Positions 1-54,127 of a stretch of DNA of 64,000 bases are shown here, one piece after another. Below the pieces are notes generated by a model. That model was given only the letters and a program-made list of their open reading frames with translations, did no database searches and was not told the DNA's origin. The stretch lies in assembly GCA_963575745.1 (NCBI GenBank), contig CAUYUJ010000001.1:620001-684000 (forward strand), given 5' to 3'. Made by a program: the position numbers and the translations under genes. The DNA comes from Prorocentrum cordatum. Lineage: Eukaryota. Numbering within the stretch: position 1 is the stretch's first letter; the number at the start of each line of letters is the position of its first letter.

Positions 1-752
1 TCAACAAACACTTGCCCACGCAAGACATGCAGCACGAAACGCGACGAACTTTGCAATAACGCGCCGTAATCACGCCTCAGAGCCGTGTACCTATTAGCGT
101 GAACCACGGGAGCGCAGACCGAGCAACACTGTTACCATCAGTGCCACCAGCGCGTCGCGACAGAAACGTTGCCACCCCTTGCCATTTGGGCGCCCGAGGG
201 ATCTACAGATAGTTTTTTTCCGGAACAAACCTCCCGTAGGGCCCCTTGGCACACGAGGCTCCTCCGGGGTCCCAAAACAGCCTCCAGGGAGGCCCCCCAG
301 AGGCTCCAAACCCGACCACAATACGTACACACGCCAGGAGCCACGTACATACAACATCAAACCACATGAAAGCAGGACGGTACCTCCCCGTCTGACTTCA
401 AACCAAAACGACGGCACACCATGATGTACATGTGCCCTCACCATAGTTTCTATAATAGATCAAAACGACTAGTTTGAACACAAGACGCATTGAAACAGGT
501 GTCGTCACCATGCACCATGGGCTGCACAACGGTCGCCACCACCACAGTTCCGAATCAACACAAGTCATTGCACGTACAATATCCAGGCAACTGTCCATAC
601 CGCAGACATGCAGACCGGAACCGCTCTGTCGAATTACAAACGAAGACGCGACCACCTCATTACATGCCTCTGCCCATACCACTCGTCTCCCTCGTCCTCA
701 TCGTCGTCCTCGTCCTCCTCCAATTCTTATTCCTCCTCCTCCTTCTCCCCGC

Positions 753-880
753 CTTGACGCCACGCGGTCCCAAGAGCGCCGTTAGAGGGAACCTCAGCCC
801 GGTTTTTACCGAAAAACCGCCCTGCAGCCCCTGTGGGGACTGATACAGAAAACCAGCGACGAAATCGCCTTCTCCAGAAA
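753..880 (+). repeat. ~125-bp diverged direct repeat, second copy at about 6661-6790, each copy adjoining (TCC)/(GTC) tracts
   Basis: gcggtcccaagagcgccgttagaggga...gcagcccctgtgggg versus gcggtcctaagagcgccgctagaggga...gcagcccctgtgggg. Confidence 0.8.
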
Positions 881-960
881 ACTCCTCCCCCTCCTCGTCC
901 TCGTCGTCGTCCTCGTCCTCCTTCGCCTCCTCCTCCTTCTCCTCCTCCTCCTCCTCCTCC

Positions 961-982
961 TCCGTAGCCATTTTGGCTCAAG
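961..982 (+). other. Full-length dinoflagellate spliced leader (DinoSL) sequence, genome-integrated
   Basis: TCCGTAGCCATTTTGGCTCAAG matches the DinoSL consensus DCCGTAGCCATTTTGGCTCAAG at 22/22 positions. It is followed by ATG, not by a GT splice donor. Confidence 0.97.
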
Positions 983-3900
983 ATGATTTCGCCCCGTGGC
1001 AGAGCACGGAGACCCTTGGTCCAGGGACAGCTAAGGACACGCTTTCATATCCTCGCCTTCCTGCTGCCCAGCGGGTTGAGCTTCATATTTGGTGCTGCAT
1101 CCGCCTGCAGACACCTTCACGCGCAATACGCAGAGGCTGGCGCGGGCCTCAGATCGCCGACGTCGCCGACATGGGTCCTCCCGGAGACTGCCTGGCCAGC
1201 GCTGCATCGACCCCTCGTGACGGAGCCACCGACCCAGTCAAGCGACAACAAGACCCATGGCATGACAGCGCATCCAAACTCGCAGTTCACGACCTTCCAG
1301 CACATGTTCGGAAGCAGCTCGAGGAGACCATGGCCGCCCAGATCAAAGACGCCACCGAAAAGTTCGAGGCCACAGCCAAGGCAGTCACAGCAAAGGCCAG
1401 CTCAGAGTTTCTTGCCTCACTCACGCAGATCACGTCCGACCTCAGCAGACGTCACGAAGCCACAGAACGAGATATCACCGCAGTCAAGCTCCGCACCAAC
1501 GTCCTGGAAGAGCAGAACTTCGAACTCAAGGCCGCCGTCGCCAAGCTGGAGTCCATCATCACAGCAGCAGAAGCACGCGCTCCCGCCCTCAACCTGGACG
1601 GCTTGGGCAGCTGGGACCGCGACCCCGACATCACCACCTTCTGGTGCAGCAGCCCGCAGGAGTTCGGTCAGCAACACCTTGAAAAAGCTCTCACCCCATG
1701 GTTCCAGGCAGCCAACATCAAGAAGGACATGGTCATCTTCAACACGGTCGGCCCTTCCAAGCGCCACTCGTTTCAGGTCAGCGGTGGCACAGTGGTGGCG
1801 GAACCTCGGGCACAACGTCTTCATAATGCTTTGCGCAATGGAAAGGATTGGCGCACATTCACTCTCGATTCTGGTAATGATAAATACGTTCCTCTATATG
1901 TCTCCGCCGACAAGAGCCCGAAGGCCGTCCGCACGGAGGTCCAGATCAAGCGCCTCGCCAAGATCATGCAGAACGTCAAGCCAGACCTCGATGCTCGCTC
2001 ACACAGAACCCTGGGCTACATATCGTGCCGCGGCGAAGCTATGGTTCGCCTTATTGTTGGCAGCAATGCTGATGTACCTACTGAGCTCCAGTGGTCACAG
2101 GCTGCCAACAGACATGGAATTTCCGAAGACGACCAGAAGCATATCGCTGCCGAGTTCATCAGCAACTTCGCATATCCCCTCTCCGCCGCACAGTGGCTTT
2201 AGCCTTCGGTGGAGCCCATGGCTCCTGAAGCCCTCTCAGGAGGGCCTGAACATCGCCTTCTGGAACGCGCAAGCGCTTCTTGGACACTCCGCCCTACGTC
2301 GCGCCGACAAACGACAGCAACTTTTACCATATTTTCGCCAACGAGCTCTTATCGCAGTGCAAGAGACTCATGGGGCCCTGGACGACCTCAAGCTGCTGGC
2401 GAACTCTACCCAGCATCGGTACAAAGCTTTTCACTCGCCCGTGATGGTTAACGGCGCGCCCGTGACTAACGCTGGCGGCATTGGCTTCCTCGTTCCCTAC
2501 GACAAGGCAGAGCTTCAACTTCCTCCAGACGAACGGCCTCAGCTCAGGTTCGAGGTCGTCATCCCTGGCCGAGCCGCCTGGCTTCGGACCACGGATGCCA
2601 GCCTCCAGCACGAAGTCACTGTCCTCAACATTCACAACTTCGGCTTGACTCCAGCAGATCGGCTTCTCTTACGTGATCAATGGCACGCTCTTCGCCAACA
2701 TGCTGACGAAGTCCCTCAGCAGCGGCTTCTAGTCATCGTCGGCGACTTCAACGTCTCCGAGTTCCCACCGCGATCGATTAACACGCCTGTCGACCCAGAC
2801 ACCACAGCATCACAGCGTTATCAGTGCCAACCTGTCTTCTGGCGCAACCTGTTCCGCGACGTCATCGAGATTGTGACTCCCTCGACGACACACAGATCGG
2901 AGGCTAACAACAACGAATCGACTATTGACCGCTGCTTCATCAACTTGCCCAGCCACCTCATGCCTTGCATGGAAACTGTCTACATCGCCGACGACGCCCC
3001 CCTCGAGAACCCCAAGGGCCCCGTCAGCGACCACAAGATCATGCACCTGCGCATCCGTCTCCGCAAGCCCAAGAAGGTCACCGAGCGCGGCATCCCCGCG
3101 TACATCTTCGACACCGACCACTACAAGCACCACGTCTCCAAAGTGCTCGCCACGGTCGACATGTCTATCCTCGCTCCCACGGCGCGCTGGAGGGCCTTGA
3201 AGGCAGCCATGAGAGTTGCCGCTGCCAGAGCCCGTGACACGCTTCTCAAGATCCCAGCCGCCGAACTATCATCACAAAATGCTACTGTCAAAAAGGAAAC
3301 CAGGGCCATGACACTACGCAGCATCGCCAGGGCCGTATGGTACCAGAACGCCCCCCTCGCCCAGACTTTGATCGACAACACCGACATCGGCAAACTGCAC
3401 TTGAAGATTGACGGCCGCACCGTCAGCATCAACGACATGCGCGACTTCTCCTCGACCACCGACGCCACGCACGCGAGCCTCAGTGACGAGCGCAAGGCCC
3501 TCTCTGCAGCACGCTCGCGAGCCGCTTTCGCCTCCAACAATGTCCAGCTCGGTCAGAAGTGGCGCCAGCGTGCCAAACGGGAAGGCCTCCGCGGCGAGCT
3601 CTGGAAGCCATTCTCCAAGCGGCTCGTCCTGACGGGCGTCAAGATCATCGCTGGCGGCGTCACCAACATCGTCTCCGACCCCGCGACGATGCATCAGGCC
3701 ATCATGCGCCACTGGGCCCCCGTCTTTGCTGCAAAGCATGTTCCCGAAGATGCCCTCTCCAACTACCTCGACTCGATCTTCCCCAGACGCGCGCTCACCC
3801 ACCTCGACCTACCTGACGCCCAAGCTCTTGAGAAGGCTGCTCGCCTGGCTGGCGACTCCGCACCAGGACCCGATACACTACCTTACAAAGCATGGCTACG

Positions 3901-6577
3901 TACTCCCGACAGCTTCGACATCCTCGCCGACTTCTGCCGTGACATCGCCACCAGACGCGCACCGCCTCACGACCTCAACTACTCCCTCATGGCCATGCTA
4001 CCGAAGGGCGACGAGCCCTGCGGCAATGCTGAGTGCACCCGTGCTCCAGAGTGCCTACGTCCGCTTTCAATGAAGAGCTCGGATGTGAAGCTGATGGCAT
4101 CCGCCGCCAACCGGCAGCTTCACGCCCTCGCAGCCGAGACGTCCCCCGAGCAGCAGGGATTCGTCAATGGCCGCCAGTTTTTGCGTAACGTCGTCGTGGT
4201 TGACGCCGCCGCTCGACGTCACAGTCTTTCACCTAATGCAGCTACTGACAAGCCCGTCTTCGTCAGCATGGACATCGCGGCCGCCTTCCCCAGCCTCGGC
4301 CACCACTGGATGTGGAATGTTCTCCAGCGGTGGGGCATCCATGGACACATGCTACGCCTGCTTCAGGCTTGCTACCACTGGCCTGTCTCCTACCTGGACC
4401 TGGGAGGTGCACGCCGCCCCCTTTTGATCGCAGCATCAGGAGTCGCTCAGGGATGTCCGTTGAGCGGTGCGATCTGGGCACTCGTCTTCGACCCCGTCAT
4501 CAGAGCCCTCACCAGCGAGCTCTCAGCCATCGAGCGCGGTCTGGTAAGCGCAGGCGCTGACGACCTCGGCATCGTCCTCGCGAGGCTCGCGGACATCAGC
4601 AAGCTCGCGCCGCGCATCATTGCGGTGGAGACTCTCGCGGGTCTGTGCCTCCAGGCCAAGAAATGCATCGTGGTCCCGACCTGGACGCTGCCCACTCAGG
4701 ACATCATTGCAGAGATACGTCAAGTACTTGCTGCCGCCCACGCTCCCTGGGCCGCCTTCAAGGTTGAGTCCAGTGCCCGATGCCTCGGCTTCTTTATTGG
4801 CCCTGGCGCCACTCTTGATGACCAATGGCGCGGCCCTGCTGTCAAGTGGTGGGGCCGCGTCGAGAAGCTTGCCGCGTCCCACGCTCCTATTCAGCAGAGC
4901 ATCGAACTGTGCAGCGTCGCTGCCGTCACGGTCCTTGGATACGTAGGCCAGCTATTCGAACCCTCGGCGGGCATCCTCCAGAAGGAGCTGCAGGCCATCC
5001 ACAAGTTGCTGCGCGTTGCCCCGTCCAGCTTCGCGAAGTCCGACATCCTCGCGATGTCCCTCTGGACCAAGGCTGAGGTCCCTATTGGCATCGAGAACTA
5101 CTTGGCGGCCACTATGTGGCGTACTGCCACCGCCACGGTGGCAGAGTGGCGCGACGCAGCCAACGCGCTCTGCGACGCCGCGTACGAGCATCTCCCCCTC
5201 GTCACAGTGCAGCGCGGCCACTGGTGCAGCGAGTGCTGGTCCATCAAGACGTCCATCGTCCAACGTTTCGAGCATATCACCAATTCTACCTTCTTCCCCG
5301 ACTGCAAGGGCTCCCACTTAAAGAGGCTGACCCGCACAGCTGGCCCTCTTCCTCGCGCCCGAGCCGCTATGATTGGCATCCACAAGCGAGCCGCGCGTGC
5401 TGGAATGCAGGCACTTCTACAGCAGCAACATGAACCGCGCCGCCGCCGAGCCACACAGATCACGCCGCAGAAGGCCTACATGACGTCCCTCAACGAGCAG
5501 CTCTACACCGACACGATGGCAGACACCATAAAGCGGCGTCTCCTGTCCTGGTTCCCGCCCCTTGACCCTGCGAAGTCGCTCGCCAGGGAGCCGCTCAGCG
5601 GGCCTCGCCGAAACGCCGAAATCGTACAAGAACGTCTGGCAGACCGCGCTCGCGCGTGGGCCGCCCACTGGCTCCCCGACATCCTGCTCAATGACCGCGC
5701 GATCGACAACCGCCCAGACTGGATGCAGTGGTGCACGGAGTACCTGTGCGAGCTTCTCGGGTCCGAGACCTTTCGCCCGCTTTACGCCACCTCCACTCGC
5801 CGTCGACAGATCGCCATCGACATGTGCCAGCAGGCATTGGACAACAGTGGCAGAATCCTCCTCGAACACCGTCTCTCAAGAACACGGACCCGCTCAGATG
5901 AACCGAGCAGCCAGATTTCGCTACACCAGCATGAAGCTGCCCAACATCGCGCCCGCCGCCGCTGGGTCGCCAACTTTCTCCCGTGCCAGCTGCCCGACAC
6001 CGACATCAGTGATGCCGACATCCCCGAGGGCGACGAAGACCCTCCTGATGACGAGGATGAGCCGCCTGATCTTCTTCGTCTCCAGCGGGTTCCCGCCGAC
6101 CTACCAGCTCGCTGGAAACGTCTGCGCACCTACCTGGATACGCAACCGCCCGCACGGATGTGGGCCACAGTGAAGGCCCTCGTGGGCGCATGGACCACCA
6201 GCTACCGCATGCATGTCATCCAGGACAAGCGCCCCTGCCACTTCGGGTGCACGCACCAGCTCGCCAAGGACAACATTCAGCACTACATGACTTGCGAGCG
6301 CATGTGGCACCAGCTGAGCCTGCCCCGCGGCCAGCTGAGCGCCAACCTTCTCACGCGCATGGCGCTCCCCGAGCTGTCGCACCCGTTCGACGGCGAGAAC
6401 GGCATCCCGAACTCCGCCACGCGCCTCGCCGTCGCGACGCGGGCGTACCACCTCACCAAGGACTACCCCCTCCCGATGTCGTACCACAACCAGAACACGG
6501 CCTTCGCCGCCGCTCGCCGCGCCCTCCAGCTTCCTGCTGACTTGAGTGGAGGTGCGGGCGCGCCGCGGCGTGGCTAA
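983..6577 (+). CDS. LINE ORF2: AP-like endonuclease, reverse transcriptase, C-terminal CCHC knuckle (true start uncertain: ATG 983 or ATG 2114)
   Basis: APE motifs FWNAQ (2261), QETH, VGDFN (2741), IDR, SDH (3026). RT motifs PGPD, RPLS, QQGF, DIAAAFPS, GVAQGCPLSG, GADD (4553), CLG (4781). C-terminal CHFGC...HYMTC (6236). No stop in 1864 codons. Confidence 0.93.
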   Translation: MISPRGRARRPLVQGQLRTRFHILAFLLPSGLSFIFGAASACRHLHAQYAEAGAGLRSPTSPTWVLPETAWPALHRPLVTEPPTQSSDNKTHGMTAHPNSQFTTFQHMFGSSSRRPWPPRSKTPPKSSRPQPRQSQQRPAQSFLPHSRRSRPTSADVTKPQNEISPQSSSAPTSWKSRTSNSRPPSPSWSPSSQQQKHALPPSTWTAWAAGTATPTSPPSGAAARRSSVSNTLKKLSPHGSRQPTSRRTWSSSTRSALPSATRFRSAVAQWWRNLGHNVFIMLCAMERIGAHSLSILVMINTFLYMSPPTRARRPSARRSRSSASPRSCRTSSQTSMLAHTEPWATYRAAAKLWFALLLAAMLMYLLSSSGHRLPTDMEFPKTTRSISLPSSSATSHIPSPPHSGFSLRWSPWLLKPSQEGLNIAFWNAQALLGHSALRRADKRQQLLPYFRQRALIAVQETHGALDDLKLLANSTQHRYKAFHSPVMVNGAPVTNAGGIGFLVPYDKAELQLPPDERPQLRFEVVIPGRAAWLRTTDASLQHEVTVLNIHNFGLTPADRLLLRDQWHALRQHADEVPQQRLLVIVGDFNVSEFPPRSINTPVDPDTTASQRYQCQPVFWRNLFRDVIEIVTPSTTHRSEANNNESTIDRCFINLPSHLMPCMETVYIADDAPLENPKGPVSDHKIMHLRIRLRKPKKVTERGIPAYIFDTDHYKHHVSKVLATVDMSILAPTARWRALKAAMRVAAARARDTLLKIPAAELSSQNATVKKETRAMTLRSIARAVWYQNAPLAQTLIDNTDIGKLHLKIDGRTVSINDMRDFSSTTDATHASLSDERKALSAARSRAAFASNNVQLGQKWRQRAKREGLRGELWKPFSKRLVLTGVKIIAGGVTNIVSDPATMHQAIMRHWAPVFAAKHVPEDALSNYLDSIFPRRALTHLDLPDAQALEKAARLAGDSAPGPDTLPYKAWLRTPDSFDILADFCRDIATRRAPPHDLNYSLMAMLPKGDEPCGNAECTRAPECLRPLSMKSSDVKLMASAANRQLHALAAETSPEQQGFVNGRQFLRNVVVVDAAARRHSLSPNAATDKPVFVSMDIAAAFPSLGHHWMWNVLQRWGIHGHMLRLLQACYHWPVSYLDLGGARRPLLIAASGVAQGCPLSGAIWALVFDPVIRALTSELSAIERGLVSAGADDLGIVLARLADISKLAPRIIAVETLAGLCLQAKKCIVVPTWTLPTQDIIAEIRQVLAAAHAPWAAFKVESSARCLGFFIGPGATLDDQWRGPAVKWWGRVEKLAASHAPIQQSIELCSVAAVTVLGYVGQLFEPSAGILQKELQAIHKLLRVAPSSFAKSDILAMSLWTKAEVPIGIENYLAATMWRTATATVAEWRDAANALCDAAYEHLPLVTVQRGHWCSECWSIKTSIVQRFEHITNSTFFPDCKGSHLKRLTRTAGPLPRARAAMIGIHKRAARAGMQALLQQQHEPRRRRATQITPQKAYMTSLNEQLYTDTMADTIKRRLLSWFPPLDPAKSLAREPLSGPRRNAEIVQERLADRARAWAAHWLPDILLNDRAIDNRPDWMQWCTEYLCELLGSETFRPLYATSTRRRQIAIDMCQQALDNSGRILLEHRLSRTRTRSDEPSSQISLHQHEAAQHRARRRWVANFLPCQLPDTDISDADIPEGDEDPPDDEDEPPDLLRLQRVPADLPARWKRLRTYLDTQPPARMWATVKALVGAWTTSYRMHVIQDKRPCHFGCTHQLAKDNIQHYMTCERMWHQLSLPRGQLSANLLTRMALPELSHPFDGENGIPNSATRLAVATRAYHLTKDYPLPMSYHNQNTAFAAARRALQLPADLSGGAGAPRRG
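1171..2202 (+). CDS. LINE ORF1 protein (coiled coil plus putative RRM-like nucleic-acid-binding region)
   Basis: First in-frame ATG at 1171 (the frame is open from 973). Heptad-like stretch LTQITSDLSRRHEATERDITAVKLRTNVLEEQNFELKAAVAKLESII. Position upstream of APE-RT is typical of ORF1. Confidence 0.8.
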   Translation: MGPPGDCLASAASTPRDGATDPVKRQQDPWHDSASKLAVHDLPAHVRKQLEETMAAQIKDATEKFEATAKAVTAKASSEFLASLTQITSDLSRRHEATERDITAVKLRTNVLEEQNFELKAAVAKLESIITAAEARAPALNLDGLGSWDRDPDITTFWCSSPQEFGQQHLEKALTPWFQAANIKKDMVIFNTVGPSKRHSFQVSGGTVVAEPRAQRLHNALRNGKDWRTFTLDSGNDKYVPLYVSADKSPKAVRTEVQIKRLAKIMQNVKPDLDARSHRTLGYISCRGEAMVRLIVGSNADVPTELQWSQAANRHGISEDDQKHIAAEFISNFAYPLSAAQWL

Positions 6578-6579
6578 GC

Positions 6580-6611
6580 GCGGACGAACCTTCCTTCAAG
6601 GTTACGTTCGC
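6580..6611 (+). other. 3'-terminal stem-loop of the LINE
   Basis: GCGGACG-AACCTT [CCTTC] AAGGTT-A-CGTTCGC: 13-bp stem with one G-U pair and one bulged A. It fills almost the whole 3' UTR. Confidence 0.75.
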
Positions 6612-7083
6612 TCCTCCTCCTCCTCCTCCTCCTCCTCCTCCTCCTCCTCCCCCTCCCGATCCTGGCGCCAGGCGGTCCTAAGAGCGCCGCTAGAGGGATC
6701 GCCAGGCCAGTTTTTACAGAAAAACTGCCCGGCAGCCCCTGTGGGGGCGGACAGAGAAAACCAACGATAAACACCACCCCCGCAGAGGAGTCGCCGTGGT
6801 CGTCGTCGTGGTCGCCCCTGCCGTCGACGTCGTAGTCGTCGTCGCACTCGTGGTCGTGGTCGTGGTCGTCGCCCATCCTCGGACGCCACCGCTGCTGGCG
6901 GGGGCCGAATGCCCTGCTGCGTCTGGCCTGGTCGACGGCAGCGCCGCAAGAGACAGAAGGAGGAGGAGGATGAGGAGGAGGAGGATAATGCGAGAAAATG
7001 GGGAGTAGACGAGGAGGAGGAAAGCTTCCTTCCAGATACAAGGGCCAAGATTAGAAGGCGAAGCGCAGCGAGCCTTACAATCT

Positions 7084-7114
<31 letters not shown>

Positions 7115-7285
7115 GTACATGTGATATACGTAGCACCCCGCAGATGCGGATAAGAGTGTGGGGGCGGTGGGGACGTCGGCAGTTTGTGAGATTCTGGAGA
7201 AGCCCGCCGCAGGCTCCAAAGTTTCACAAAGTATACAACGAGCCCGCCGCAGGCGCAGATTTTTTCGTTGAACCAATGTGGGTAG

Positions 7286-7460
7286 GTCACGGGTGGGTCG
7301 CGGGTGGGTCGCGGGTGGGTCGCGGGTGGATCGCGGGCGGGTCGCGGGCGGGTCGCGTGGTGGGTTGCGGGTTGGATCGCGGGTTGGGTCGCGGGTTAGG
7401 TCGCGGGTTGGGTCGCGGGGTGGGTCGCGGGGTGGGTCGCGGGTGGGGTCGCGGGTGGGA
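7286..7460. repeat. ~12-bp minisatellite (GGGTCGCGGGTG)n
   Basis: Direct inspection. Confidence 0.85.
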
Positions 7461-7474
7461 CGACGACAATAAAC

Positions 7475-7523
<49 letters not shown>

Positions 7524-7526
<3 letters not shown>

Positions 7527-7751
7527 CATTTTACCCGAACGCTCAGTGTTCTCACCAGTGCCAGGGTTTTCATGCGACGCGAGACAATACCCCCACTTCG
7601 TGGGGGGGCAGTTCAAGCTCTACCAAATATCCAAACGACTCTTCGCGACCACCCAAACCCAGCTTCCCGCCCTATGACGTTGGGACACTTCACTTCGTGG
7701 CGTGCGGACGACCGTGGCTACTACACTGGCGTGGGGTACACACCCACAGAA
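7524..7751 (-). mobile_element. 228-bp SINE-like element with (GTT)n tail, copy 1
   Basis: Highly similar to 8694-8921. Both copies abut (AAC)n and end at the same base. Confidence 0.55.
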
Positions 7752-7879
7752 CTTGGTCACTTATTCGGGGCGCGCGTGTGCCCAGCATCCTGCAATTGTG
7801 ACATACAATACATGACACAGACAGACAGAGAGAGAGACAGAGAGCAGACAGAGAGAGAGACAGAGAGAGCGGAGTTGGT

Positions 7880-9595
7880 CACATTTTTGGGGCAAGTTCC
7901 TGAGATCGTCGTGTTTTTTGTTGGTCTTGCGCGCGCGAATGTCCACTTTACTTTTTTTTGCAAGGGATGTTGAAATTTGATTATGTAAGAACAAGAAAAA
8001 GTAGCTCGCGCGAGCTTATGTAACATAAATGTTGAAAAACCATTGGTTTTGTGGGAGTCGGACAGCGCGCGCGGGATGAAATTTGGACATTTTTTTTTGA
8101 AAAACCATTGGGTTTTTGATGTTTTTATGTTGAAATCGTTACGAAACCTAAGGTTCTGGAAGGATTTCGTCTTGCGCGCGCGAATGTCCACTTTACCTTA
8201 TTTTTTGCAAGGGATTATTGAAATTTGATTATGTTAGAACAAGAAAAAGTAGCTCGCGCGAGCTCATGTAACATAAATGTTGAAAAACCATTGGTTTTGT
8301 GGGATTCGGACAGCGCGCGCGGAAGGACATTTTGACAATTTTTTCTTAAAAAACCATTGGGTTTTTGATGTTTTTATGTTAAAATCGCTACGAAACCTAA
8401 GGTTTTGGAAGGATTTCGTCTTGCGCGCACGAATGTCCACTTTACCTTATTTTTTGCAAGGGATTCTTGCAATTTGATCAAGTAAGAACAAGAATTTTCA
8501 TTTTATAGTGTTTTTTGCAAGGGAAAACGGAGTACAACAAAAAACCGGATCCGGTAACAATCCACTTTTCTGAAGCTTTCGCGAAAAAATGATGAAAATG
8601 TAGCTGCGGCCTAGGCGCGGCGCAGGGTCGCGCACCAGGGGTCCCAACAATAATAATTCTTTAGAAGGAATAATATTCAACAACAACAACAACAATCACT
8701 TTACCCGAACGCTCAGTGTTCTCACCAGTGCCAGGGTTTTCATGCGACGCCAGCCAATACCCCCACTTTGTGGGGGGGCAGTGCAAGCTCTACCAAATAT
8801 CCACACGACTCTTCGCCACCACCCACACCCAGCTTCCCGCCCTATGACGTTCGGACACTTCACTTCGTGGCCTGCGGACGACCGTGGCTACTACACTGGC
8901 GTGGAGTACACACCCACAGAAGTTGTTAGGACAGCGCGCGCGGGTAGAAATTTTGAAAAGTCGTGCAGGTGTTTTTCGAGGACCTACGGTGCGATTCGTG
9001 TGATTTTATGATGCGCGGTGCTAAAATTCTTAAGAAGCCCAATGGTTTTTGGAGATTTCGGCGTGCGCGCGCGAAGAAAAAACGAATGTGTCCCGCATGG
9101 TATTATTTGACAGGGATGATGGCCCTGGCAGGTGCGCAACCGTTGTCGCAGAAGTTCGAAAAAGTTGCTCGCAAAAGCCCGTTTGACAGAAATGTTTAAA
9201 AAGTGTTGGGTTTCCTACGAATCCGCAAGAGCGCGCGGGATGAGATTTTGACAGTTTTTTGTTGAAAAACCATTGGTTTTTTGATGTTTTTATGTTAAAA
9301 TCGCTGCGAACACTAAGGTTTTGGAAGGATTTCGTCTTGCACGCGCGAATGTCCACTTTACCTTATTTTTTGCAAGGGATTCTTGAAATTGGATTACATT
9401 TGAACAAGAAATTTCATTTTATAGTGTTTTTTGCAAGGGAAAACGGGGGGGAACAAAACAACCGGATCCGGTACTAATCCACTTTTCTGAAGCTTTCGCG
9501 AAAAAATGATGAAAATGTAGCTGCGGCCTAGGTTTTGGAGGGGGGTCGTGTACCAGGGGTCCCAACAATAATTATTCTTTAGAAGTAATAATGTT
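7880..9595. repeat. AT-rich repeat family in two blocks (about 7880-8676 and 8930-9595) with internal ~240-bp subunits
   Basis: Recurrent gcgcgcgaatgtccactttaccttattttttgcaaggg and aaaaaccattgg. Shared end ccaggggtcccaacaataat...agaag. Confidence 0.85.
8694..8921 (-). mobile_element. 228-bp SINE-like element with (GTT)n tail, copy 2
   Basis: Duplicate of 7524-7751, offset 1170 bp. Confidence 0.55.
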
Positions 9596-11129: not shown

Positions 11130-14100
11130 GCGAACAGGAAGGCGTTCAGGGGCGTTGCAAGAGGCGCCGCGGCGATGGCTTCTGCGGCGGATGACAGCGG
11201 GCCAACGCCGATGGACACCGGGTCCCTGACGGCGACGTTGGCAGCAGGAGGGATGGCGCTAACCGAGGTGCCGATGGTCGTAAACGCCATCCAGAAGGGC
11301 CAGGGCAAGGGGAAGGGGAAGGGGCAGAGCAAAAGGAAAGACGGCGCCATGAAGGGATGCGGGAAGCTCTAAGACGGAAGCAGGGGCTCCCGATCTCAGC
11401 ACCAGACGCAGAAGGATGGCATGGGCAGAGTTGGAAATGATGGCCAGCGCGTCGAGACGCGGACGTGCAGGAAGTGTCATCAGAAAGGCCACCTGATGAG
11501 AGACTGCCCTGACAAGACTCGAGAGTGAACAGCGCAGCCAGCAAGACGATCGAGTTGAAGGACGTTGAACTTGATTCAGCTGCTTGCGCCTGTGACGGGC
11601 TCAGCAGCGTCGAGCGCGCCGTCCGCGGCGCCGAGCAGCGCCGCCCAGGCGCGGGCCAGCGCCGTGCAGCTGTCAACGGCGAGCTCAGTGGCCGCCCCGA
11701 GTGGCGGCGGCGCCAGCTCAAGTGGTGGCGGGGCCGCGGGAGACGCCGCGCCCGCCATCCAGTGGGCGCTGCGCTTGGCGGCCCAGGCAACGGGCCCCGT
11801 GAATCGGATCTCGATGCCGCGAGCTCCACGGGCTGACGGCCCAGGAGGCGACAGCGAGAGCTGCGAGGAGTATATCGTGGTGGACTCGGGGGCCTCCAGA
11901 GCGACGCGCCCACGCAGCCGCGCCCCGAGCGCGGTGCCGCGTGAGCCCGCCCAGCTCTACGACATCCGCGCCGCGGACGGCAGGCGCGCGAAGCACCGCG
12001 GCGAGAAGAGCGTGCAGAGCGACCAGCTGGACAGCTCAGACGTGCACGGAGTGGGCATCGGCTACCAGGTCGCCGACGTCTCGCGCCCCATCATGGGGGT
12101 AGCCGAGACATGCGACAACGGCCGCTCTGCGCTGTTCTCCATGACGGGCTCGCACATCGTGCCCGCGGCGCTCAGCCTGCCAGAGGGCGTCGCCATCCGG
12201 CTTCCAGTGCGACGCGACAACCTGTTCTGGATGCGAGGGCGCGTCGCGGGAGCCACAGCGACGACGTCCGAGGCGCTGCGGCTCACCCCAGTCGGGGCCA
12301 AGGCGCCCGTGGCAGCAGCCCCCGCGGCGGTCGAGCAGCCTCGTCGCGAGGAGGCCCCGCTGGCAGAGGCGGGGCCCGACGGGGCGCCAGCCAGGGCGAA
12401 GCGGGCGCCGCCGCTCCCCAGCCAGAAGAAGATCGCCAAGCACGAGCTCACTCACCTTCCACCGCGAGGTTGGTGCGACAAGTGCGTGCTGGCCAAGGCG
12501 GCGGACGACCCGCGCCGACAGGGCGGCGGGCCTGGCAGCGTCGACGAGGTGCAGACGGACAACCTGCAGCTCGGCGCCGCGGTCGCAGCTGAGGAGCTGG
12601 CGGCCCAGACGACAGCGCGGCGTGGTTGGCTCCGGCGGATCAGCAGATCGACCAGGCCGCCCTGATGCCGCGGCTGGTGGGCCCAGTCGCTGGCGACGGC
12701 GTGGAGGTGCTGCTCAACGTGCTGGTGGTTGCGCGCCGCCAGTCTGCCGCGGCGCGCGCGGTCCTGGGGTCTAAGGGCATGCGCCCCTTCACGTCCACTG
12801 CAGCGAGTGCGGCCATCGACGCCCGGGGAATCGCGGAGTGCATCCTGCGCGCCTGGCCGAGCAGATGGCCGATGAGCGGCAGATGAAGGGCTTCGAGTGC
12901 CAGCTTGCGGCAGCGCCTGCCAAGAGCCGCGCATCGATGGGTTTCACTGGGGCCATGAACGACCAGGTGGCCAAGCAGGTGCGCGTGATCAAGCTCCAGC
13001 TCGAGTCGGGCATGGGCGCGCGCGCCCCCGTGTCCCCCGGTGCGATGCCGTGGGTGGCCAGGCGCGCTGGGTGGCTCGTCGCGCGGTTTGCTGCCGGGCG
13101 GGCCGCTGGCAAGACGGCCTGCCACGTCAGTCGGGGCAAGCCGTGCCGCGGGGAAATGGCCGCGCTCGGAGAAGTTGCCTGGGCTCGCGTGCCAGGCGAC
13201 CGCGCGCAGAAGGCAGAGGCTCAGTGGCGCTCAAGTGTCTGGCTGGGCAAAACCGAGAAGAGCGACGAGCACCTGGTCGGCGGGTCGCGGCAGACCAGCC
13301 GCCGCCGGGCGATCGGGAGGCAGCCGAGGGAGCGGAGGTTCAACGTGGACGCGCTGAAGAGCTTCGCGGGCCTGCCTTGGAACCTCCAGTCTAAGCCTGA
13401 GCGGGCAGACACCGTTGCCGGGCAGCCCTGGGGCGGCGTTGAACCCCGCCTCGGAGACAGCGTGGCGAGGGCGCGCCAGGCGCAGGCGCAACCGCGCCAG
13501 GCCGAGGGGGCGCATCCAGCGGCAGAGGCAAGCAGCGGCGCCGCAGCAGCAGCAGCTCCAGTGGCCGTAGCGCCAGGGCGACCACCTCCAAGACCTCTGG
13601 GCGCTCCGCCAGCACCCCATGCCCGAGCCGAAGCTCGGATGAGCCACCAACGTGACGAAGAGGATGGTGCAGACCTACGGGCCCACCTTGAACTGTCCGA
13701 GGTGCTGGGGAGGCGAGGCGGCGCACTCTCGTGAGTGCAGGGTGCGCATGGAGGGGAAGCTCCTGGATGAGGTGAATCGGCAGGCAGCGGTTCGCCCGTT
13801 GCCAGGCGACGCCATCGCAGCCCCAGGGGTGGAGGTGGATGCGGCAGCGGTCGACCCCGCAGCCGCGATGGCAGCAGCAGCAGGTGGCGCAGCAACAGCG
13901 GCGAGTTCATCCCAGCCACCTCCTGCGGAGGGCGGCTCAGCGTGCGACTCCGCGGGGGCGGGCGTGGACTCGAGGAGCCGACCGGCAGCTCCCACGGACG
14001 GCGAGCCACGGTCGAAGGCGCCGAGGGTGGCCCACCTCGCGGTGCCCGTGGACGTCAGTGAACCTGCCTACTTCGGACTCGACGGCGAGGACTGCGAGCG

Positions 14101-16463
14101 GCTGCAGCTGTTCGCGGCGTCCGTGCGTGATCGGGAGACCCCGACAGAGTGGGCGTGCGACCTCGTGCCAGAGGCGGTGGTGTACGACAGCCGCTCGGGC
14201 GAGGTGCTGCCGAGGGAGCTCGCGGTGCAGGGGCGCCAGCAGGAGCTCGCCCAGATGGCCGCGTTCGGCGCGCGCGAGGACGCGTCCGACGACGCGAGCG
14301 TAGGCAGGCGCATGCGGAGCAAGTGGCGTGACGGACTCCGATGCAGGCCAGACGGGGCGCCCTTCGTACGGTCGAGACTCGCTGCCGTGGGCTTCAACTT
14401 CTGCAAGCGTGGCGACGTGGCGGCAGGTGCGCCATACCTCTTCCACTTGCGCCCTGTGGTGCCCCTGGCAGAGGCAAGCGGCTCTTCCACTTGCGCCTCG
14501 GAGCCCCTGTCGTGGCAGAGGCAAGTGGCTCTGTGCGATGCCAGCGTGGCGTTCTTCCACGCGGACATGGGCGAGTGGTTGTGCGTGATGCCACCGCCTG
14601 GGCTGCGACGACCTGGGCGGGTCTGGCAGCTCCACGAGGCGCTCTACGGTACAGGGCCTGCGTCAAGGTTGTGGCAGGCATACGTCGGCGACGTCTTCGA
14701 GAAGAGTCAGCCGCCATGGGTTCGGATCACGCCTTGCCCTTGTGCCTTCTACGACGAGACGTCGGACGTCGCGCTGGGCGCGCACGGCGGCGACTTCGCG
14801 GCCGATGGGGATCTCGGCGAAGCTCGACGTGCTCGACGCTGCTGGAGGATCAGCGAGATCAGTAAGCTGGGTCGAGTGGGCCCGGGTGCCACTGGCGGTG
14901 GCCGCGGCAGAAGCGACGCGTCGAGTGGCGGGGGGCTCCGTCTCCTAGCATGGTGTGGAGAGCAGATGACGCGCATGTGGACATCCTACCCGAGCTCTTG
15001 GACCTGCCAGCTGACGCGACGAAGCCTCAGACGAGCCCAGGCTCGAAGGCCACGGGAGGCTCCGTGCCCAAGGAGGCGGTCGTGGACGAGCGGCTGAATA
15101 GGTTGGTGTCCAAGGCAGGCGGAATGCTGACCTACCTGTCCCGGGACGTGCCGCAGGTGCAGTACGCAGCGAAGATGATCATGGCGAAGGCGTCGAAGCT
15201 TACGCCGCTTGCCGAGGTCAGGCTCAAGGGTGCTGCGCGGTACCTGGTGGGGTGCCCAGTGACGGAGTGGCACTGCCCGTTGCATGACTTACCAGTCACG
15301 GCGGACGTCGAGGGCGACAGCGACTGGGCAGGAGCGGATGACGCGAAGTCCACGCAGTGCACGGTGATGATGTTCGGCGATCACTGTCTAGAGGTGACTA
15401 CGTCGACGCAGGGCTACGTAGCGACGTCAGGCGGGTTGGCAGAGCTCCTGGCTCTCAGCAGGGCGGGTGCCTCCGCTATCCTGTTGCAGCAGATGCTCGC
15501 ACAGTGCGGGATCCACGTGCAGGGAGTTGCTGGTGCGGGCAGCTTGGCAGCGAAGGGAATGGCCCACCGAGTGGGGTCAGGCCGAGTGCGGCATCTCCGC
15601 GCCCAGGACTTGTGGATGCAGGAGCGCGTGCGGACTAAGGATCTGCAGGTGATCAAGTTGGACGCGGCGGTGAACCGAGCTGACATCGTGACGACGTACC
15701 TGGGCGGCTCGAGCATTGAGGTGTCGCTGAAGCTCATGGGGCTAGCGACAAGAGGGCGCGCGGCTGGCCATGTGAGCGACTCCGCGGCTGCCGTGCTGAA
15801 GGTATTCTCGGCAGCGGTGTATGTGCGTGGCGCAGCGGGAGTTGCCGCAGCCGCGGGAGAAGGCCAGTGTAACGGCAGCGCGATTGGCATCGTCGCGCCG
15901 CTGTTCCAGTTTGTGCTGGTGTACGTGATTGGAGCCGCGGTGGCGGAGTGCTACCTCGCCAAGAGGCGCTCGAGGGGGCGCCAGCCCGACGCTGCGGGCG
16001 GCGAGGTGATGGGGGGCGGGCGAGACGACAGCGCTCAGGGCGGACGAGAGCGGGTAGCCCCGCCTCTAGCCACAGAGGGCGCGAGCGCCCAGGGCGGGCG
16101 AGAGCGGGAAGCACCGCCTCCGGCCACAGAGGACGCGAACAAGGGGTCGGCAGCGGGAGGCTCCGTGCCGATCAAGAGTGAAGGACCTCGGCAGCGACGA
16201 CAGGTCGCGTCGAGGATCGTGGAGTGCCAGTGCGAGGAGCTCCACGGCGTTCCACTCAGTGGCGAGCAGATAACCGTCAGAGACGAGCTGATGCGCTGGC
16301 GGCGCTGGGGGCGCGGGGCCTCAGCGCGACGGGCCTAAAGGCGAACCTTGCCAACGGGCTGGCGAGGGTGGCGGCGGGGCCATCTGGGGCCAAGCAGGGC
16401 CCGAGGCTGACCGTCGGCGAGCTGGTCGGGTCGACTACGACGGTTGCGGGCGCGCCCAGCTGA
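11130..16463 (+). pseudogene. Frameshifted Copia gag-pol
   Basis: Gag GPTPMDTG, KGKGKG and CRKCHQKGHLMRDC (11466). Protease VVDSGAS (11883). Integrase HELTHLPPRGWCDKC (12441) and VWLGK. RT SRLAA, DASVAFFHA, LHEALYG, HGGDF (14783). RNase H DSDWAG (15316), AEL, RHL...LWMQE, NRADI. Split over at least 5 ORFs. Confidence 0.9.
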
Positions 16464-28369: not shown

Positions 28370-29420
28370 GTGTAGGCAACCACAGCGACAAACAAGTTCA
28401 GGGGGGCACGGAGAGAAGGAGAACGGCTCAGAGAGAGAGAGATAAAGAAAGAGAAATAGAAAGAGAGAGAGAGAGACACACACAAAGAGAGACAGAGACA
28501 AAGAGAAAGAGAGAGAAAGAGAGAGAGAGAGGAGAGGAAGATGAGAAGGAGGAAAGAAACATCCAAAGTTCAAAACTTATTAGATTCCATGTGTAAGCGC
28601 TTAATGAAAATTGAAATTTTCATCTGCTCGTGTAGTCCCAGGATAACCAACCACAGCGATGAACAAGTTCAGGGGGGCACGGAGAGAAGGAGAAAGGCTG
28701 AGAGAGAGAAAGACAGAGAAAGAGAAAGAGAGAGAGAGACACACAACGAGAGACAGCGACAAAGAGAGAGAGAGAGAGAGGAGAGGAAGATGAAAAGGAT
28801 GAACGACAAATCCAAAGTGCAAAACCTATCAGATTTTATTTGTAAACGCTTAATGGAAATTGAAATTTTCATCTGCTCGTGTAGGGTAGCAGGATAATCA
28901 ACCACAGCGATAAACAAGTTCAGGGGGGCACGGGGAGAAAGAGAAAGGCTGAGATATATTAAGAAAGAGAAATAGAAAGAGAGAGACACACAGAGAGAGA
29001 GAGAGAGAGACAAAGAGAGACAGCGACAGAGAGAGAGAGAGAGAGAAAGGAGAGGAGGATGAAAAGGATGAACGACAAATCCAAAGTTCAAAACCTATTA
29101 GATTTCTATGTGTAAGCGCTTAATGAAAATTAAACTTTTCATCTGCTTGTGTAGGGTAGCTCATGTGCCTCGTTTTCCCAGGATGATCAACCACAGCGGT
29201 AAACAAGTTCAGGGCGCCAGGGGGAGGAGTAGAACGAGACAGAGAGAACGCAGAGGAGGAAGAGGAGGAGGAGGAGGAGGAGGGAGAGCAGGAAGAGGAG
29301 AGAAGGGAGAGGAGCAGGAGGAAGAGGAGGAGGAGGGGAAGGAGCAGGAGCAGAGGGAGGAGGCGGGGGAGGAGAAAGGAGGAGCAGGAGGAGGGGGAGC
29401 AGGACAGGATTCCTTAAGCA
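28370..29420. repeat. ~250-290-bp tandem repeat containing (GA)n, about 4 units
   Basis: Recurrent caaccacagcgat...aacaagttcaggggggcacgg and atccaaagttcaaaacctatta. Confidence 0.85.
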
Positions 29421-29599
29421 CTGCTTGTTTCGCTTGAGACGTCCTTGCAGAATTGGTTGTTTCGCTTCAGACATCCTTCAGACGTTCGGCGAACTTTTCA
29501 CAGTGATAATGAAGTTCGGCCTCCGCGCTCTCCGCCTACATTTGAAACCCTTCTAGGCCGACGGTAATCAACTCAAATGACTTAGGGGGGGGGGGGTTA

Positions 29600-29950
29600 T
29601 GTTGGTGATGCTGATGATGATGATGCTGATGATGATGATGATGGTGACGCTGATGATGATGAGGAGGAGGAGGAGGGGGGGGGGAGGATGATAGACGAGG
29701 AGGGGGAGGAAGAGGAGGATGAGAAGGGAAGAGGTGGAGGAGATGGACGAGACGGAGGATGATGAGGAGGATGAGGATAGAGAAGGAGGAGGAGGACGAG
29801 GAGGAGGAGGATGAGGAGGCGTGATGAGGAGGATCGGCCAGGAGGAGGCGTCATGATGATAATGCTGCTGCTGATGATGCTGATGATGTTGCTGATGATG
29901 ATGATGCTGCTGATGATGATGATGATAATGACGATGATGATGATGATGAC

Positions 29951-30504: not shown

Positions 30505-30866
30505 CTGATGATGATGATTATGCTGGTGATGATGATGCTGCTGATGATGATGATTATGGTAATGGCGATGGTGATGCTGATGGTGATAATGATGAAGATG
30601 ATGCTGATGGTGATGATGATGATTGTGATTCTGCTGATGATGGCGATGATGATTACGATGATGATGAGGATGATGCTAATGATGGTGATTATTGTGATGA
30701 TTGTGATGATTATGATGATGATTCTGATGTTGATGATTCTGATGATGGTGATGTTGATGATGGTAATGATGATGATGATGAGGAGGAGGAGGAGGAGGAG
30801 GAGGATGCTGATGCGGATGCTGATGCTGATGCTGATGCTGATGCTGATGCTGCTGCTGATGATGAC
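29600..30866. repeat. (GAT)n/(GAG)n microsatellite block
   Basis: Direct inspection. Confidence 0.95.
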
Positions 30867-54104: not shown

Positions 54105-54127
54105 TGGACTCGCGCGTCCAGGCCGTC

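What the first reader, a model, noticed from the sequence alone, without database searches (positions are those of the whole stretch)
961..6650. Full-length LINE integrated with a perfect DinoSL at its 5' end
Seen: the element begins exactly at the first base of a 22/22 DinoSL, and both ORFs are open. Established: DinoSL is trans-spliced onto dinoflagellate mRNAs, and SL relics mark retroposed cDNAs. CRE/SLACS/NeSL elements instead insert into SL RNA genes and use a different endonuclease type. Inference: the transposition intermediate was a trans-spliced RNA copied right up to the cap. The element may need no internal promoter, since read-through transcripts could be re-trans-spliced at an AG within the integrated SL. 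It is also a plausible source of the RT behind SL-retrogene formation.
Basis: partly seen in the sequence, partly recalled or inferred. Interest (0 to 1): 0.85.

Follow-up and report, generated by a model that had tools for sequence, protein, structure and literature searches.

The report
Spliced-leader-capped LINE in a dinoflagellate
A complete jumping gene (LINE) in a dinoflagellate genome starts with the 22-base spliced leader that the cell adds to its messenger RNAs, and distant relatives show the same leader, so these elements appear to copy themselves from trans-spliced messages.

Summary
Window 961-982 is a 22/22 DinoSL, the only one in 64 kb. Directly behind it lies an intact non-LTR retrotransposon:
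- a 188-nt 5'UTR;
- ORF1 (343 aa, fold like human L1 ORF1p);
- a 1864-codon open frame with APE endonuclease, reverse transcriptase (RT) and a CCHC motif;
- a 33-nt 3'UTR that is one stable hairpin;
- no poly(A).

One caveat: the first 3 SL bases (TCC) equal the flanking microsatellite unit, so the 5' edge is uncertain by 3 nt.

New here:
- The SL is not a one-off. Its in-frame translation sits upstream of ORF1 in 3 of 153 ORF1-family proteins from other assemblies (0.0135 expected). One is named Prorocentrum cordatum.
- Both flanks are (CTC)n. The 49%-identical relative also has poly-Ser before its SL. This suggests microsatellite-targeted insertion.
- The ORF2 frame is stop-free across all of ORF1 in 3 of 3 relatives, and its first ATG directly follows the SL.

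A trans-spliced mRNA as transposition intermediate is well supported. Re-trans-splicing of integrated copies and a role in retrogene formation remain untested. No RNA data or other genomic copies could be examined. I rate it a new variant of known kinds, of moderate to high interest.

The parts
880..960 (+). CTC/GTC-rich microsatellite tract abutting the SL (5' target flank). 926-960 is a 35-nt pure pyrimidine run and a possible polypyrimidine tract for a 3' splice site.
961..982 (+). DinoSL, 22/22. The first 3 nt (TCC) cannot be told from the microsatellite. AG dinucleotides at 966-967 and 981-982.
983..1170 (+). 5'UTR (188 nt). It holds only two ATGs up to ORF1: 983 (opens the long ORF2 frame, directly after the SL) and 1171 (ORF1).
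1171..2202 (+). ORF1, 343 aa, no Pfam family. Long helix 44-135 plus two alpha/beta domains. The fold is closest to the human L1 ORF1p trimer. It belongs to a conserved family (718 representatives at E<=1e-3).
983..6577 (+). Long open frame of 1864 codons (ORF2 frame, +1 relative to ORF1), stop-free across the whole of ORF1.
2261..3034 (+). APE-type endonuclease domain (Exo_endo_phos).
4055..4675 (+). Reverse transcriptase domain (RVT_1). The PDB sequence search matches the RTs of R2 (4.2e-14) and human L1 ORF2p (1e-13).
6236..6295 (+). C-terminal CCHC motif (C-x3-C-x10-H-x3-C). The second Cys is invariant in the 8-sequence ORF2 alignment.
6580..6611 (+). 3'UTR hairpin (13 bp with one bulge, 5-nt loop) that fills nearly all of the 33-nt 3'UTR. 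No A-run follows it.
6611..6657 (+). (CTC)n tract, a 47-nt pyrimidine run: element tail and/or 3' target flank.
704..859 (+). Upstream copy of a flanking repeat ((CTC)n plus a ~110-nt unit), 80% identical to 6612-6767. Part of the target locus, not of the element.
6612..6767 (+). Downstream copy of the same flanking repeat.

Best explanation
This is an intact, autonomous, L1-like non-LTR retrotransposon. It has an L1-type ORF1p, and its ORF2 carries an APE endonuclease, an RT and a CCHC motif. It belongs to a large dinoflagellate family whose transposition intermediate is an SL-trans-spliced mRNA. Full-length cDNA synthesis therefore leaves the 22-nt DinoSL as the element's first bases. This subfamily integrates in sense orientation into (CTC)n microsatellites. 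I infer that the APE nicks the (GAG)n strand. I further infer that reverse transcription starts on an RNA 3' end made of a short hairpin plus a (CUC)n read-through tail that pairs with the nicked target, so there is no poly(A). The SL's own 5' UCC may also help join the 5' end to (TCC)n. Shown: the anatomy, recurrence of the SL in relatives, microsatellite on both flanks, the hairpin, the ORF1 fold. Inferred (about 50% each): (a) integrated copies are read through from upstream and trans-spliced again, using the (UCC)n tract as polypyrimidine tract and the SL's terminal AG (981-982) as acceptor, which would regenerate exactly one SL per cycle; (b) the AUG directly after the SL opens the ORF2 frame, and ORF1 is reached by leaky scanning.
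For: SL 22/22 and unique in the window. APE and RT domains. RT matches to R2 and L1 ORF2p. The ORF1 model has pLDDT 86.9, and the top 9 Foldseek PDB hits are all human L1 ORF1p trimer chains, E 1.6e-4 to 7.7e-4. ORF1 is a real conserved family: 5 relatives at 42-65% identity, all ending in WL like the window's ORF1, and 718 representatives at E<=1e-3. SL-derived peptides lie upstream of ORF1 in relatives: P0003 '...NNPSSSSSSSSVAILAQDVHC...', P0073 'MHSVAILAQACEF...', and P0143, which starts with 'PFWLK...'. The window reads '...SSSSSSSSVAILAQDDFAPW' in the same frame. That is 3 hits in 153 proteins against 0.0135 expected, reached by 0 of 2000 shuffles. P0143 is an NCBI protein named Prorocentrum cordatum, from a 291-kb contig. 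P0003 carries sequence upstream of its SL, so it is not simply an mRNA 5' end. Perfect (CTC)n tracts of >=15 nt cover only 0.68% of the window in sense orientation, yet both flanks are such tracts, and P0003 has 8 Ser codons before its SL. The hairpin folds at -17 kcal/mol, z -3.64, matched by 0 of 200 shuffles. No A-run at the 3' end. No stacked relic follows the SL in the window, P0003 or P0073 (3 of 3 readable cases). The ORF2 frame is stop-free over ORF1 in the window, L001 and L002 (synonymous-shuffle fractions 0.0012, 0.0002, 0.0102).
Against: No second DNA copy with a 5' end could be examined. L001 and L002 are both cut by contig ends before the 5'UTR. The relatives' SLs are therefore known only as peptides, with codons unseen. 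Only 3 of 153 proteins show the SL peptide; most gene calls start at the ORF1 Met and say nothing either way. Target preference rests on two cases, the window and P0003. P0073 has 'MH', not poly-Ser, before its SL. No RNA evidence was obtained. The junctions were not verified with reads. None of the 139 other SL-bearing loci fetched from viral and prokaryote-genome collections encodes a relative. SL-capped LINEs of this family are thus not a large share of genomic SLs in that sample, which comes mostly from a different, AT-rich source.
Confidence: 0.72

Rival explanations
1. Passive tag only. The SL does come from a trans-spliced LINE mRNA, but it has no later role. Daughter copies are transcriptionally dead unless they land in a transcribed unit. 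The family is kept going by a few master copies that have an ordinary upstream acceptor AG just before the ATG at the element's first base.
For: A single unstacked SL in the window, P0003 and P0073 is what master copies without a resident SL would produce. Retrogene transcripts described in the literature usually stack a 15-nt relic behind the new SL (PMC12014239 and PMC7245778 passages), and that is not seen here.
Against: The resident SL sits behind a 35-nt pyrimidine run and ends in AG, so it is an adequate acceptor. The same SL-to-body junction ('AQD') in the window and the 49%-identical P0003 fits exact regeneration as well as it fits master copies. Nothing here separates the two.
Confidence: 0.3
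2. The integrated SL works as a core promoter rather than a splice acceptor. Its TTTT/TTTG motif would act as the dinoflagellate TATA substitute proposed for retrogenes, making each copy self-transcribing.
For: Song et al. 2017 propose that the TTTG/TTTT motif retained in DinoSL relicts serves as a promoter that lets retrogenes survive (PMC5585692 passages).
Against: Transcription starting downstream of the motif would lose the SL and the first bases of the body. Successive copies would then shorten at the 5' end. Instead the SL-to-body junction is intact here and looks conserved in P0003. No test was possible.
Confidence: 0.08
3. Template switch: at the end of cDNA synthesis the RT jumped from the LINE RNA onto an SL RNA, as in U6-L1 chimeras (recalled from memory). 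The LINE mRNA itself was then never trans-spliced.
For: None specific. LINE RTs are known to switch templates (recalled).
Against: A jump onto SL RNA should copy exon plus intron. Here the SL ends exactly at exon base 22 and the element body follows. SL RNA genes in the fetched loci continue with GTAC... (L127, L128, L134, L140). The same exon-only boundary recurs in three relatives.
Confidence: 0.04
4. Artefact: an assembly chimera or cDNA contamination joined an SL-bearing transcript to genomic DNA.
For: The junction could not be checked with reads. The best DNA run held only 0.36 of the sampled words.
Against: The window has no N. The insert lies inside one CTC-rich tract, with matching but non-identical (80%) flank repeats on both sides. 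There is no poly(A), which a cDNA would carry. The same architecture appears in independent assemblies, including upstream poly-Ser in P0003 and an NCBI genome contig for P0143.
Confidence: 0.03
5. A site-specific element of SL RNA genes, CRE/SLACS/NeSL-like. The SL would then be target sequence, not part of the element.
For: Only the adjacency of a LINE to an SL.
Against: The endonuclease is APE-type and N-terminal, not a restriction-like endonuclease behind the RT. The whole exon is on one side, with no SL intron or remaining SL on the 3' side. The sequence upstream of the SL is a microsatellite, not an SL gene upstream region. No SL RNA family or other RNA gene was found in 1-9000.
Confidence: 0.02

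Closest known systems
DinoSL-tagged retrogenes of dinoflagellates (Slamovits & Keeling 2008, recalled; Song et al. 2017, PMC5585692, passages read)
   Same: A retroposed cDNA of a trans-spliced mRNA leaves the SL in genomic DNA at the 5' end. Song et al. note the GO term 'RNA-dependent DNA replication' enriched among genes with DinoSL relicts, so RT genes with relicts have been counted before.
   Different: Here the cargo is the autonomous retrotransposon itself. The SL is complete and single, not a truncated or stacked relic. There is no poly(A). The insertion lies in a microsatellite. The trait recurs across a divergent ORF1 family. [quoted passage not shown]
Microsatellite-specific APE-type LINEs: Kibi (TC)n, Koshi (TTC)n, Waldo (ACAY)n, Mino (AC)n, Dong (TAA)n (PMC3812793, passages)
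   Same: An APE-type LINE lying within a microsatellite, with the repeat on both sides.
   Different: Those are animal elements without any SL. The target here is (CTC)n. Specificity rests on only two cases, and clade membership was not tested.
Human LINE-1
   Same: ORF1p of coiled coil plus RRM-like plus C-terminal domain (Foldseek top 9 hits). ORF2p with APE, RT and a Cys-His motif.
   Different: L1 has an internal 5'UTR promoter and a poly(A) tail and is not microsatellite-specific (recalled). Here there is an SL, a 188-nt UTR, a hairpin plus (CTC)n at the 3' end, and an ORF2 frame open across ORF1.
CRE1/SLACS/CZAR/NeSL-1, the SL-gene-specific elements (recalled)
   Same: A non-LTR element physically linked to spliced-leader sequence in a trans-splicing host.
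   Different: Those insert into SL RNA genes with a restriction-like endonuclease and split the SL exon. This element carries the SL as part of its own transcript and has an APE.
L1Tc/ingi of trypanosomatids (PMC1874656 and PMC8190864: titles and abstracts seen in the search listing)
   Same: LINEs living in a host that trans-splices all its mRNAs.
   Different: They carry the Pr77 internal promoter and make unspliced transcripts. The element here shows the opposite solution: its RNA is trans-spliced.

Membership tests
APE-type non-LTR retrotransposon (LINE), L1-like | Reverse transcriptase of the non-LTR type | tested here: met
   RVT_1 8.2e-16, above the curated cut-off. PDB sequence matches to the RTs of R2 (4.2e-14) and human L1 ORF2p (1e-13).
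APE-type non-LTR retrotransposon (LINE), L1-like | APE endonuclease N-terminal to the RT | tested here: met
   Exo_endo_phos 1.4e-8, 35.2 bits against a cut-off of 24.5, at aa 21-278 of the 2201-6577 translation.
APE-type non-LTR retrotransposon (LINE), L1-like | ORF1p with coiled coil, RRM and C-terminal domain | tested here: met
   AF2 model pLDDT 86.9. The top 9 Foldseek hits are human L1 ORF1p trimer chains, probability 0.99-1.0, but global TM is low (0.22-0.28 by query). No Pfam hit.
APE-type non-LTR retrotransposon (LINE), L1-like | Placement in the L1/Tx1 clade by RT phylogeny | not tested
   No reference set of LINE clades was at hand. One weak hit carries the source name 'Transposon TX1' (1.4e-9).
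APE-type non-LTR retrotransposon (LINE), L1-like | Target-site duplication and 3' poly(A) | tested here: not met
   No A-run at the 3' end. A duplication cannot be defined within a microsatellite.
SL-gene-specific elements (CRE/SLACS/NeSL) | Restriction-like endonuclease C-terminal to the RT | tested here: not met
   Only Exo_endo_phos and RVT_1 were found, with the APE N-terminal.
SL-gene-specific elements (CRE/SLACS/NeSL) | Insertion inside an SL RNA gene, with SL gene sequence on both sides | tested here: not met
   The full exon lies on the 5' side only. The 3' flank is (CTC)n and the upstream flank is a microsatellite.
DinoSL retrogene (processed retrocopy) | DinoSL or relict at the 5' end of an intronless copy | tested here: met
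   22/22 SL at 961-982.
DinoSL retrogene (processed retrocopy) | Cargo is a host gene mobilised in trans | tested here: not met
   The cargo encodes its own ORF1p, APE and RT.
Microsatellite-specific LINE | The same microsatellite on both flanks of the copy | tested here: met
   880-960 and 6611-6657 are CTC-rich tracts. Such tracts cover 0.68% of the window in sense orientation.
Microsatellite-specific LINE | The same target in most copies of the family | tested here: inconclusive
   One further case: P0003 has 8 Ser codons before its SL, with codons unseen. The distant P0073 does not. No other 5' or 3' junction was available.

The most novel reading that the evidence does not exclude
A promoter-less LINE lineage has made SL trans-splicing an obligatory step of its replication cycle. 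It targets pyrimidine microsatellites, which then supply the polypyrimidine tract. It reuses the terminal AG of its own integrated SL as the 3' splice site, so each cycle regenerates exactly one SL. It places an AUG directly after the SL, so that the 22-nt leader gives leaky scanning: rare initiation of an 1864-aa ORF2 protein that overprints ORF1, and frequent initiation of ORF1. Relatives with other microsatellite targets could then be the machinery behind the SL-tagged retrocopies that abut (TG)n, (CAT)n, (GA)n and (GACA)n in other dinoflagellate contigs.
Probability: 0.22. Interest if true: 0.85.

Novelty: new variant of a known kind. Interest (0 to 1): 0.62.

Why it matters
Dinoflagellate genomes are shaped by massive retroposition of SL-tagged mRNAs. 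The papers I read say the source of the reverse transcriptase is unknown, and they lean towards Ty1/copia LTR elements (PMC6050394; PMC5585692; PMC3942190). An intact LINE family whose own copies carry the SL gives direct sequence evidence that a LINE machinery in these genomes copies trans-spliced RNA to its very 5' end. It offers a concrete candidate enzyme and concrete assays: SL-primed RT-PCR, a nicking assay on (CTC)n DNA, and binding of the RT to the 3' hairpin. It also suggests how a retrotransposon can persist in a genome with few conventional promoters, by using read-through transcription plus trans-splicing in place of an internal promoter. That is the opposite of the Pr77 solution of trypanosomatid LINEs. 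In four searches of the held library I found no paper describing a LINE that begins with DinoSL. Subscription papers and supplementary tables were not searched.

Tried and rejected
- **Whole genome:** none is held for this window, so no census of copies was possible.
- **Sequencing runs:** no RNA holder was listed. The DNA holders were X1 (share 0.36) and X2-X5 (small shares). None was laid, so nothing is concluded from them.
- **Metagenome contigs with the ORF1 alignment:** 2 loci. Both are cut by the contig end before the 5'UTR, and no SL is visible in L002.
- **Viral contigs:** ORF1 alignment A1, none. ORF2 alignment A3, none.
- **Third protein search, with the broad ORF1 alignment:** returned only 6 already known proteins.
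- **SL 21-mer scans of viral contigs and genome contigs:** 139 loci. None encodes an ORF1 or ORF2 relative. tblastn gave only a weak RT hit in L089 to P0018. hmmsearch with A2 and A3 found nothing.
- **Pfam on ORFs behind microsatellite-abutting SLs (L122, L135, L137) and others:** no RT or APE.
- **Rfam on 1-9000:** nothing meaningful.
- **Earlier findings of this scan:** nothing by sequence, words or place.
- **Considered and rejected:** the upstream flank repeat as the 3' tail of an older LINE copy. The similarity starts exactly at 704<->6612, where the (CTC)n begins, and no counterpart of the 3'UTR hairpin or the end of ORF2 lies upstream.
Full report
**Observation.** Window 961-982 reads TCCGTAGCCATTTTGGCTCAAG. 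The DinoSL consensus quoted in PMC7245778 is DCCGTAGCCATTTTGGCTCAAG (passage), so the match is 22/22. With up to 3 mismatches the 21-mer occurs once in the 64-kb window, and none of 100 shuffles gave a match. The 15-nt relic form finds nothing else above chance.

Two ORFs follow the SL:
- ORF1 at 1171-2202 (343 aa, stop TAG).
- A frame open from the ATG at 983 to the TAA at 6575-6577 (1864 codons).

Pfam places an APE-type endonuclease at nt 2261-3034 and a reverse transcriptase at nt 4055-4675. A C-x3-C-x10-H-x3-C motif lies at 6236-6295. Its second Cys is invariant among 8 aligned ORF2 proteins.

Two caveats apply. The SL's first three bases (TCC) are also the unit of the (TCC)n run that abuts it, since 926-960 is pure pyrimidine.

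**Anatomy.**
- The ORF2 RT matches solved R2 and human L1 ORF2p RTs (4.2e-14 and 1e-13).
- ORF1 has no Pfam family but is a genuine conserved protein. Five relatives at 42-65% identity share 66 invariant columns and the C-terminal WL. A profile search of 1.84 billion representatives finds 718 at E<=1e-3 and 242 at E<=1e-10.
- An AlphaFold2 model built on 44 family members (pLDDT 86.9) shows a 90-residue helix followed by two alpha/beta domains.
- Its nine best Foldseek matches in the PDB are all chains of the human L1 ORF1p trimer (E 1.6e-4 to 7.7e-4, probability 0.99-1.0), although global TM-scores are low.
- The 33-nt 3'UTR is almost entirely one hairpin at 6580-6611 (-17 kcal/mol, z = -3.64, matched by 0 of 200 shuffles).
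- The hairpin runs straight into (CTC)n. There is no A-run.

The element is thus L1-like in its proteins but not in its ends.

**Flanks.** Both sides are CTC-rich microsatellite: 880-960 upstream and 6611-6657 downstream. Perfect (CTC)n tracts of >=15 nt cover only 0.68% of the window in this orientation, and 0.24% in the other.

Further out, 704-859 and 6612-6767 are 80% identical: (CTC)n plus a ~110-nt unit. I considered that the upstream copy might be the tail of an older LINE. The similarity begins exactly where the (CTC)n begins, and nothing upstream resembles the hairpin or the end of ORF2. I therefore read it as a local tandem structure of the target, with the LINE inserted in a long CTC tract between two units.

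The LINE body has no other copy in the window. Rfam finds nothing in 1-9000. The neighbourhood is repeat-rich, with only a weak copia-type RT fragment and a helicase-like AAA_12 fragment among 36 long ORFs scanned.

**Is the SL a one-off?** No whole genome is held, so I used translated sequence. Read in frame, the SL gives [S/T/A]VAILAQ in one frame. In the frame that follows its internal TAG, it gives PFWLK. In the window the SL is in frame with ORF1: '...SSSSSSSSVAILAQDDFAPW...'.

Among the ORF1-family proteins returned by the searches, three carry these peptides in their N-terminal extensions:
- **P0003** (49% identical ORF1): '...NNPSSSSSSSSVAILAQDVHC...'.
- **P0073** (distant, profile E 1.7e-19): 'MHSVAILAQACEF...'.
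- **P0143** (profile E 2.9e-15): begins 'PFWLKLKPRS...'.

That is 3 hits in 153 proteins (46,143 residues) against 0.0135 expected, and 0 of 2000 residue shuffles reached 3. Most of the other 150 start at the ORF1 Met or in a genuine N-terminal region, and so say nothing either way.

P0143 is an NCBI protein named Prorocentrum cordatum, from a 291-kb contig. P0003 and P0073 come from ENA assemblies without names. P0003 has 19 residues upstream of its SL, so its contig is not merely an mRNA 5' end. Eight of those residues are Ser, paralleling the window's (TCC)n.

The SL at the 5' end therefore recurs across a deeply divergent family. The limit is that the relatives' SLs are seen only as peptides. 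The two related DNA loci I could fetch (L001, L002) are cut by contig ends before the 5'UTR.

**Origin of the SL.**
- An SL-gene-targeting element (CRE/SLACS/NeSL type) is excluded for this copy. The endonuclease is APE, the complete exon lies on the 5' side only, and the 3' flank has no SL intron.
- A template jump onto SL RNA should bring the intron along. SL RNA genes among the fetched loci continue with GTAC after the exon (L127, L128, L134, L140). Here the body follows base 22.
- An assembly or cDNA artefact is unlikely. The insert sits inside one microsatellite tract with non-identical flank repeats, it lacks poly(A), and it has parallels in independent assemblies.

The best reading is that the LINE mRNA is trans-spliced and was reverse-transcribed to its 5' end.

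**How it may work (inferred).**

*3' end.* The hairpin followed by a microsatellite, without poly(A), resembles LINEs that recognise their own 3' end (recalled). The microsatellite on both flanks resembles the microsatellite-specific APE LINEs Kibi, Koshi, Waldo, Mino and Dong (PMC3812793, passages). A transcript that reads into the downstream (CTC)n would end in (CUC)n. That tail can pair with a nicked (GAG)n strand.

*5' end.* The (TCC)n tract gives an integrated copy a 35-nt polypyrimidine run. It is followed by only two AGs in 941-1000, at SL positions 6-7 and 21-22. Use of the first AG would stack a 15-nt relic, as described for retrogene transcripts. Use of the terminal AG would regenerate exactly one SL. 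In the three readable cases (window, P0003, P0073) no relic follows the SL. This fits use of the terminal AG, or descent from master copies with an ordinary acceptor. I cannot separate these two.

One observation keeps the idea open, though. In 4 of about 11 non-SL-gene SL occurrences in prokaryote-MAG contaminant contigs, the SL directly abuts a microsatellite: (TG)n, (CAT)n, (GA)n and (GACA)n in L122, L125, L135 and L137. The ORFs behind three of these SLs (L122, L135, L137) were scanned and have no RT or APE.

**An unexpected feature.** The ORF2 frame (+1 relative to ORF1) is free of stops across the whole of ORF1 in the window, in L001 and in L002. Synonymous-codon shuffles expect 4.35, 5.29 and 3.31 stops. 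The fractions of shuffles reaching zero are 0.0012, 0.0002 and 0.0102.

In the window this frame opens with the ATG at 983, the first base after the SL. The only other ATG before ORF1 is ORF1's own, at 1171. P0003's 'AQDV' is compatible with the same ATG if Asp is GAT (inference; DNA not seen). A start codon 22 nt from the cap could be leaky, giving little ORF2 and much ORF1. This is a hypothesis.

**What is known.**
- The DinoSL-relict literature treats host retrogenes.
- Song et al. 2017 report the GO term 'RNA-dependent DNA replication' enriched among genes with relicts, and call the RT source unknown (PMC5585692, passages).
- A 2018 review favours Ty1/copia (PMC6050394, passages).
- The Oxyrrhis EST study found only copia-type elements (PMC3942190, passages).
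- LINEs in Suessiales are described as old and divergent (PMC8045281, passages).
- Trypanosomatid LINEs solve expression with an internal promoter that yields unspliced transcripts (PMC1874656, PMC8190864; abstracts in the listing).

Searches with DinoSL+LINE+retrotransposon, spliced leader+non-LTR+trans-spliced, DinoSL+transposable element+reverse transcriptase and Prorocentrum cordatum+DinoSL found no description of a LINE that starts with DinoSL. Supplementary tables and subscription journals were not searched.

**Verdict.** This is a real, intact, SL-capped LINE, and the SL cap is a family trait. I rate it a new variant of known kinds (SL-tagged retroposition, microsatellite-targeting APE LINEs, L1-like proteins), not a new category. 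Interest is 0.62. It gives a concrete LINE candidate in the open question of which enzyme copies dinoflagellate mRNAs, and a testable model of promoter-free propagation. The functional steps, however, rest on one DNA copy and three peptide traces.

Noticed in passing
window 983-2202; L001 3-892; L002 1-1271: The ORF2 frame (+1 relative to ORF1) has no stop across the whole of ORF1 in all three family members with DNA. Synonymous-shuffle fractions are 0.0012, 0.0002 and 0.0102. In the window this frame starts with the ATG directly after the SL. This suggests an N-terminally extended ORF2 protein that overprints ORF1, or translation by leaky scanning.
   Followed up: partly
L003-L121 (viral contigs), e.g. 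L013, L014, L022, L025, L053-L059, L073, L108: The exact DinoSL occurs 128 times in AT-rich contigs labelled as giant-virus MAGs, many per contig. It is usually preceded by one of a few recurring AT-rich motifs: the same 12-mer precedes it 16, 14 and 10 times. The first base of the SL is A in 136 of the 154 distinct occurrences counted over viral and genome contigs together. In 89 of 128 cases an ORF of >=100 aa follows from the first ATG (median 47 nt downstream). Pfam on the 24 longest ORFs gave DUF4116 repeats, CCCH fingers and an ABC ATPase, and no viral hallmark. The source could be a virus or a compact AT-rich eukaryote that encodes the SL at the head of its genes. A listing for 'giant virus + spliced leader + dinoflagellate' showed no obvious description.
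   Followed up: partly
L122:1-59, L125:1-52, L135:57-137, L137:1-55: In dinoflagellate-like contigs binned into prokaryote MAGs, the genomic SL directly abuts a microsatellite on its 5' side: (TG)n, (CAT)n, (GA)n and (GACA)n. No RT, APE or ORF1 relative follows. SL-tagged retrocopies may generally land in microsatellites. Contig ends do tend to fall in repeats, but the zero-gap adjacency is notable.
   Followed up: partly
L127, L128/L129, L134, L140; L133:2728-2789 (reverse strand): In L127, L128, L134 and L140 the SL is followed by GTAC..., which looks like SL RNA genes (two per contig in L128 and L134). L133 shows an SL followed by two stacked 15-nt relics.
   Followed up: no
L001 1899-1901: The P0003-like copy L001 has one in-frame stop in ORF2, between the APE region and the next segment. 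It is probably a decayed copy.
   Followed up: no
window 13643-15097 (+) and 55128-56150 (+): A weak copia-type RT fragment (RVT_2, 7.9e-6, below the cut-off) and a helicase-like AAA_12 fragment (2.1e-13) lie in a region otherwise without Pfam hits among 36 long ORFs. The window is repeat-rich, and its high GC content gives many chance ORFs (81 of >=220 aa).
   Followed up: no
window 7270-7460 and 7470-7500: A tandem array of a ~12-nt GGGTGGGTCGCG-like unit, followed by an (AAC)n run just downstream of the insertion locus. (CTC)n or (GAG)n tracts recur at about 25300, 29260-29680, 30780-30805, 31480-31660, 33200-33770, 34710, 37340, 42460 and 53970-54105.
   Followed up: no
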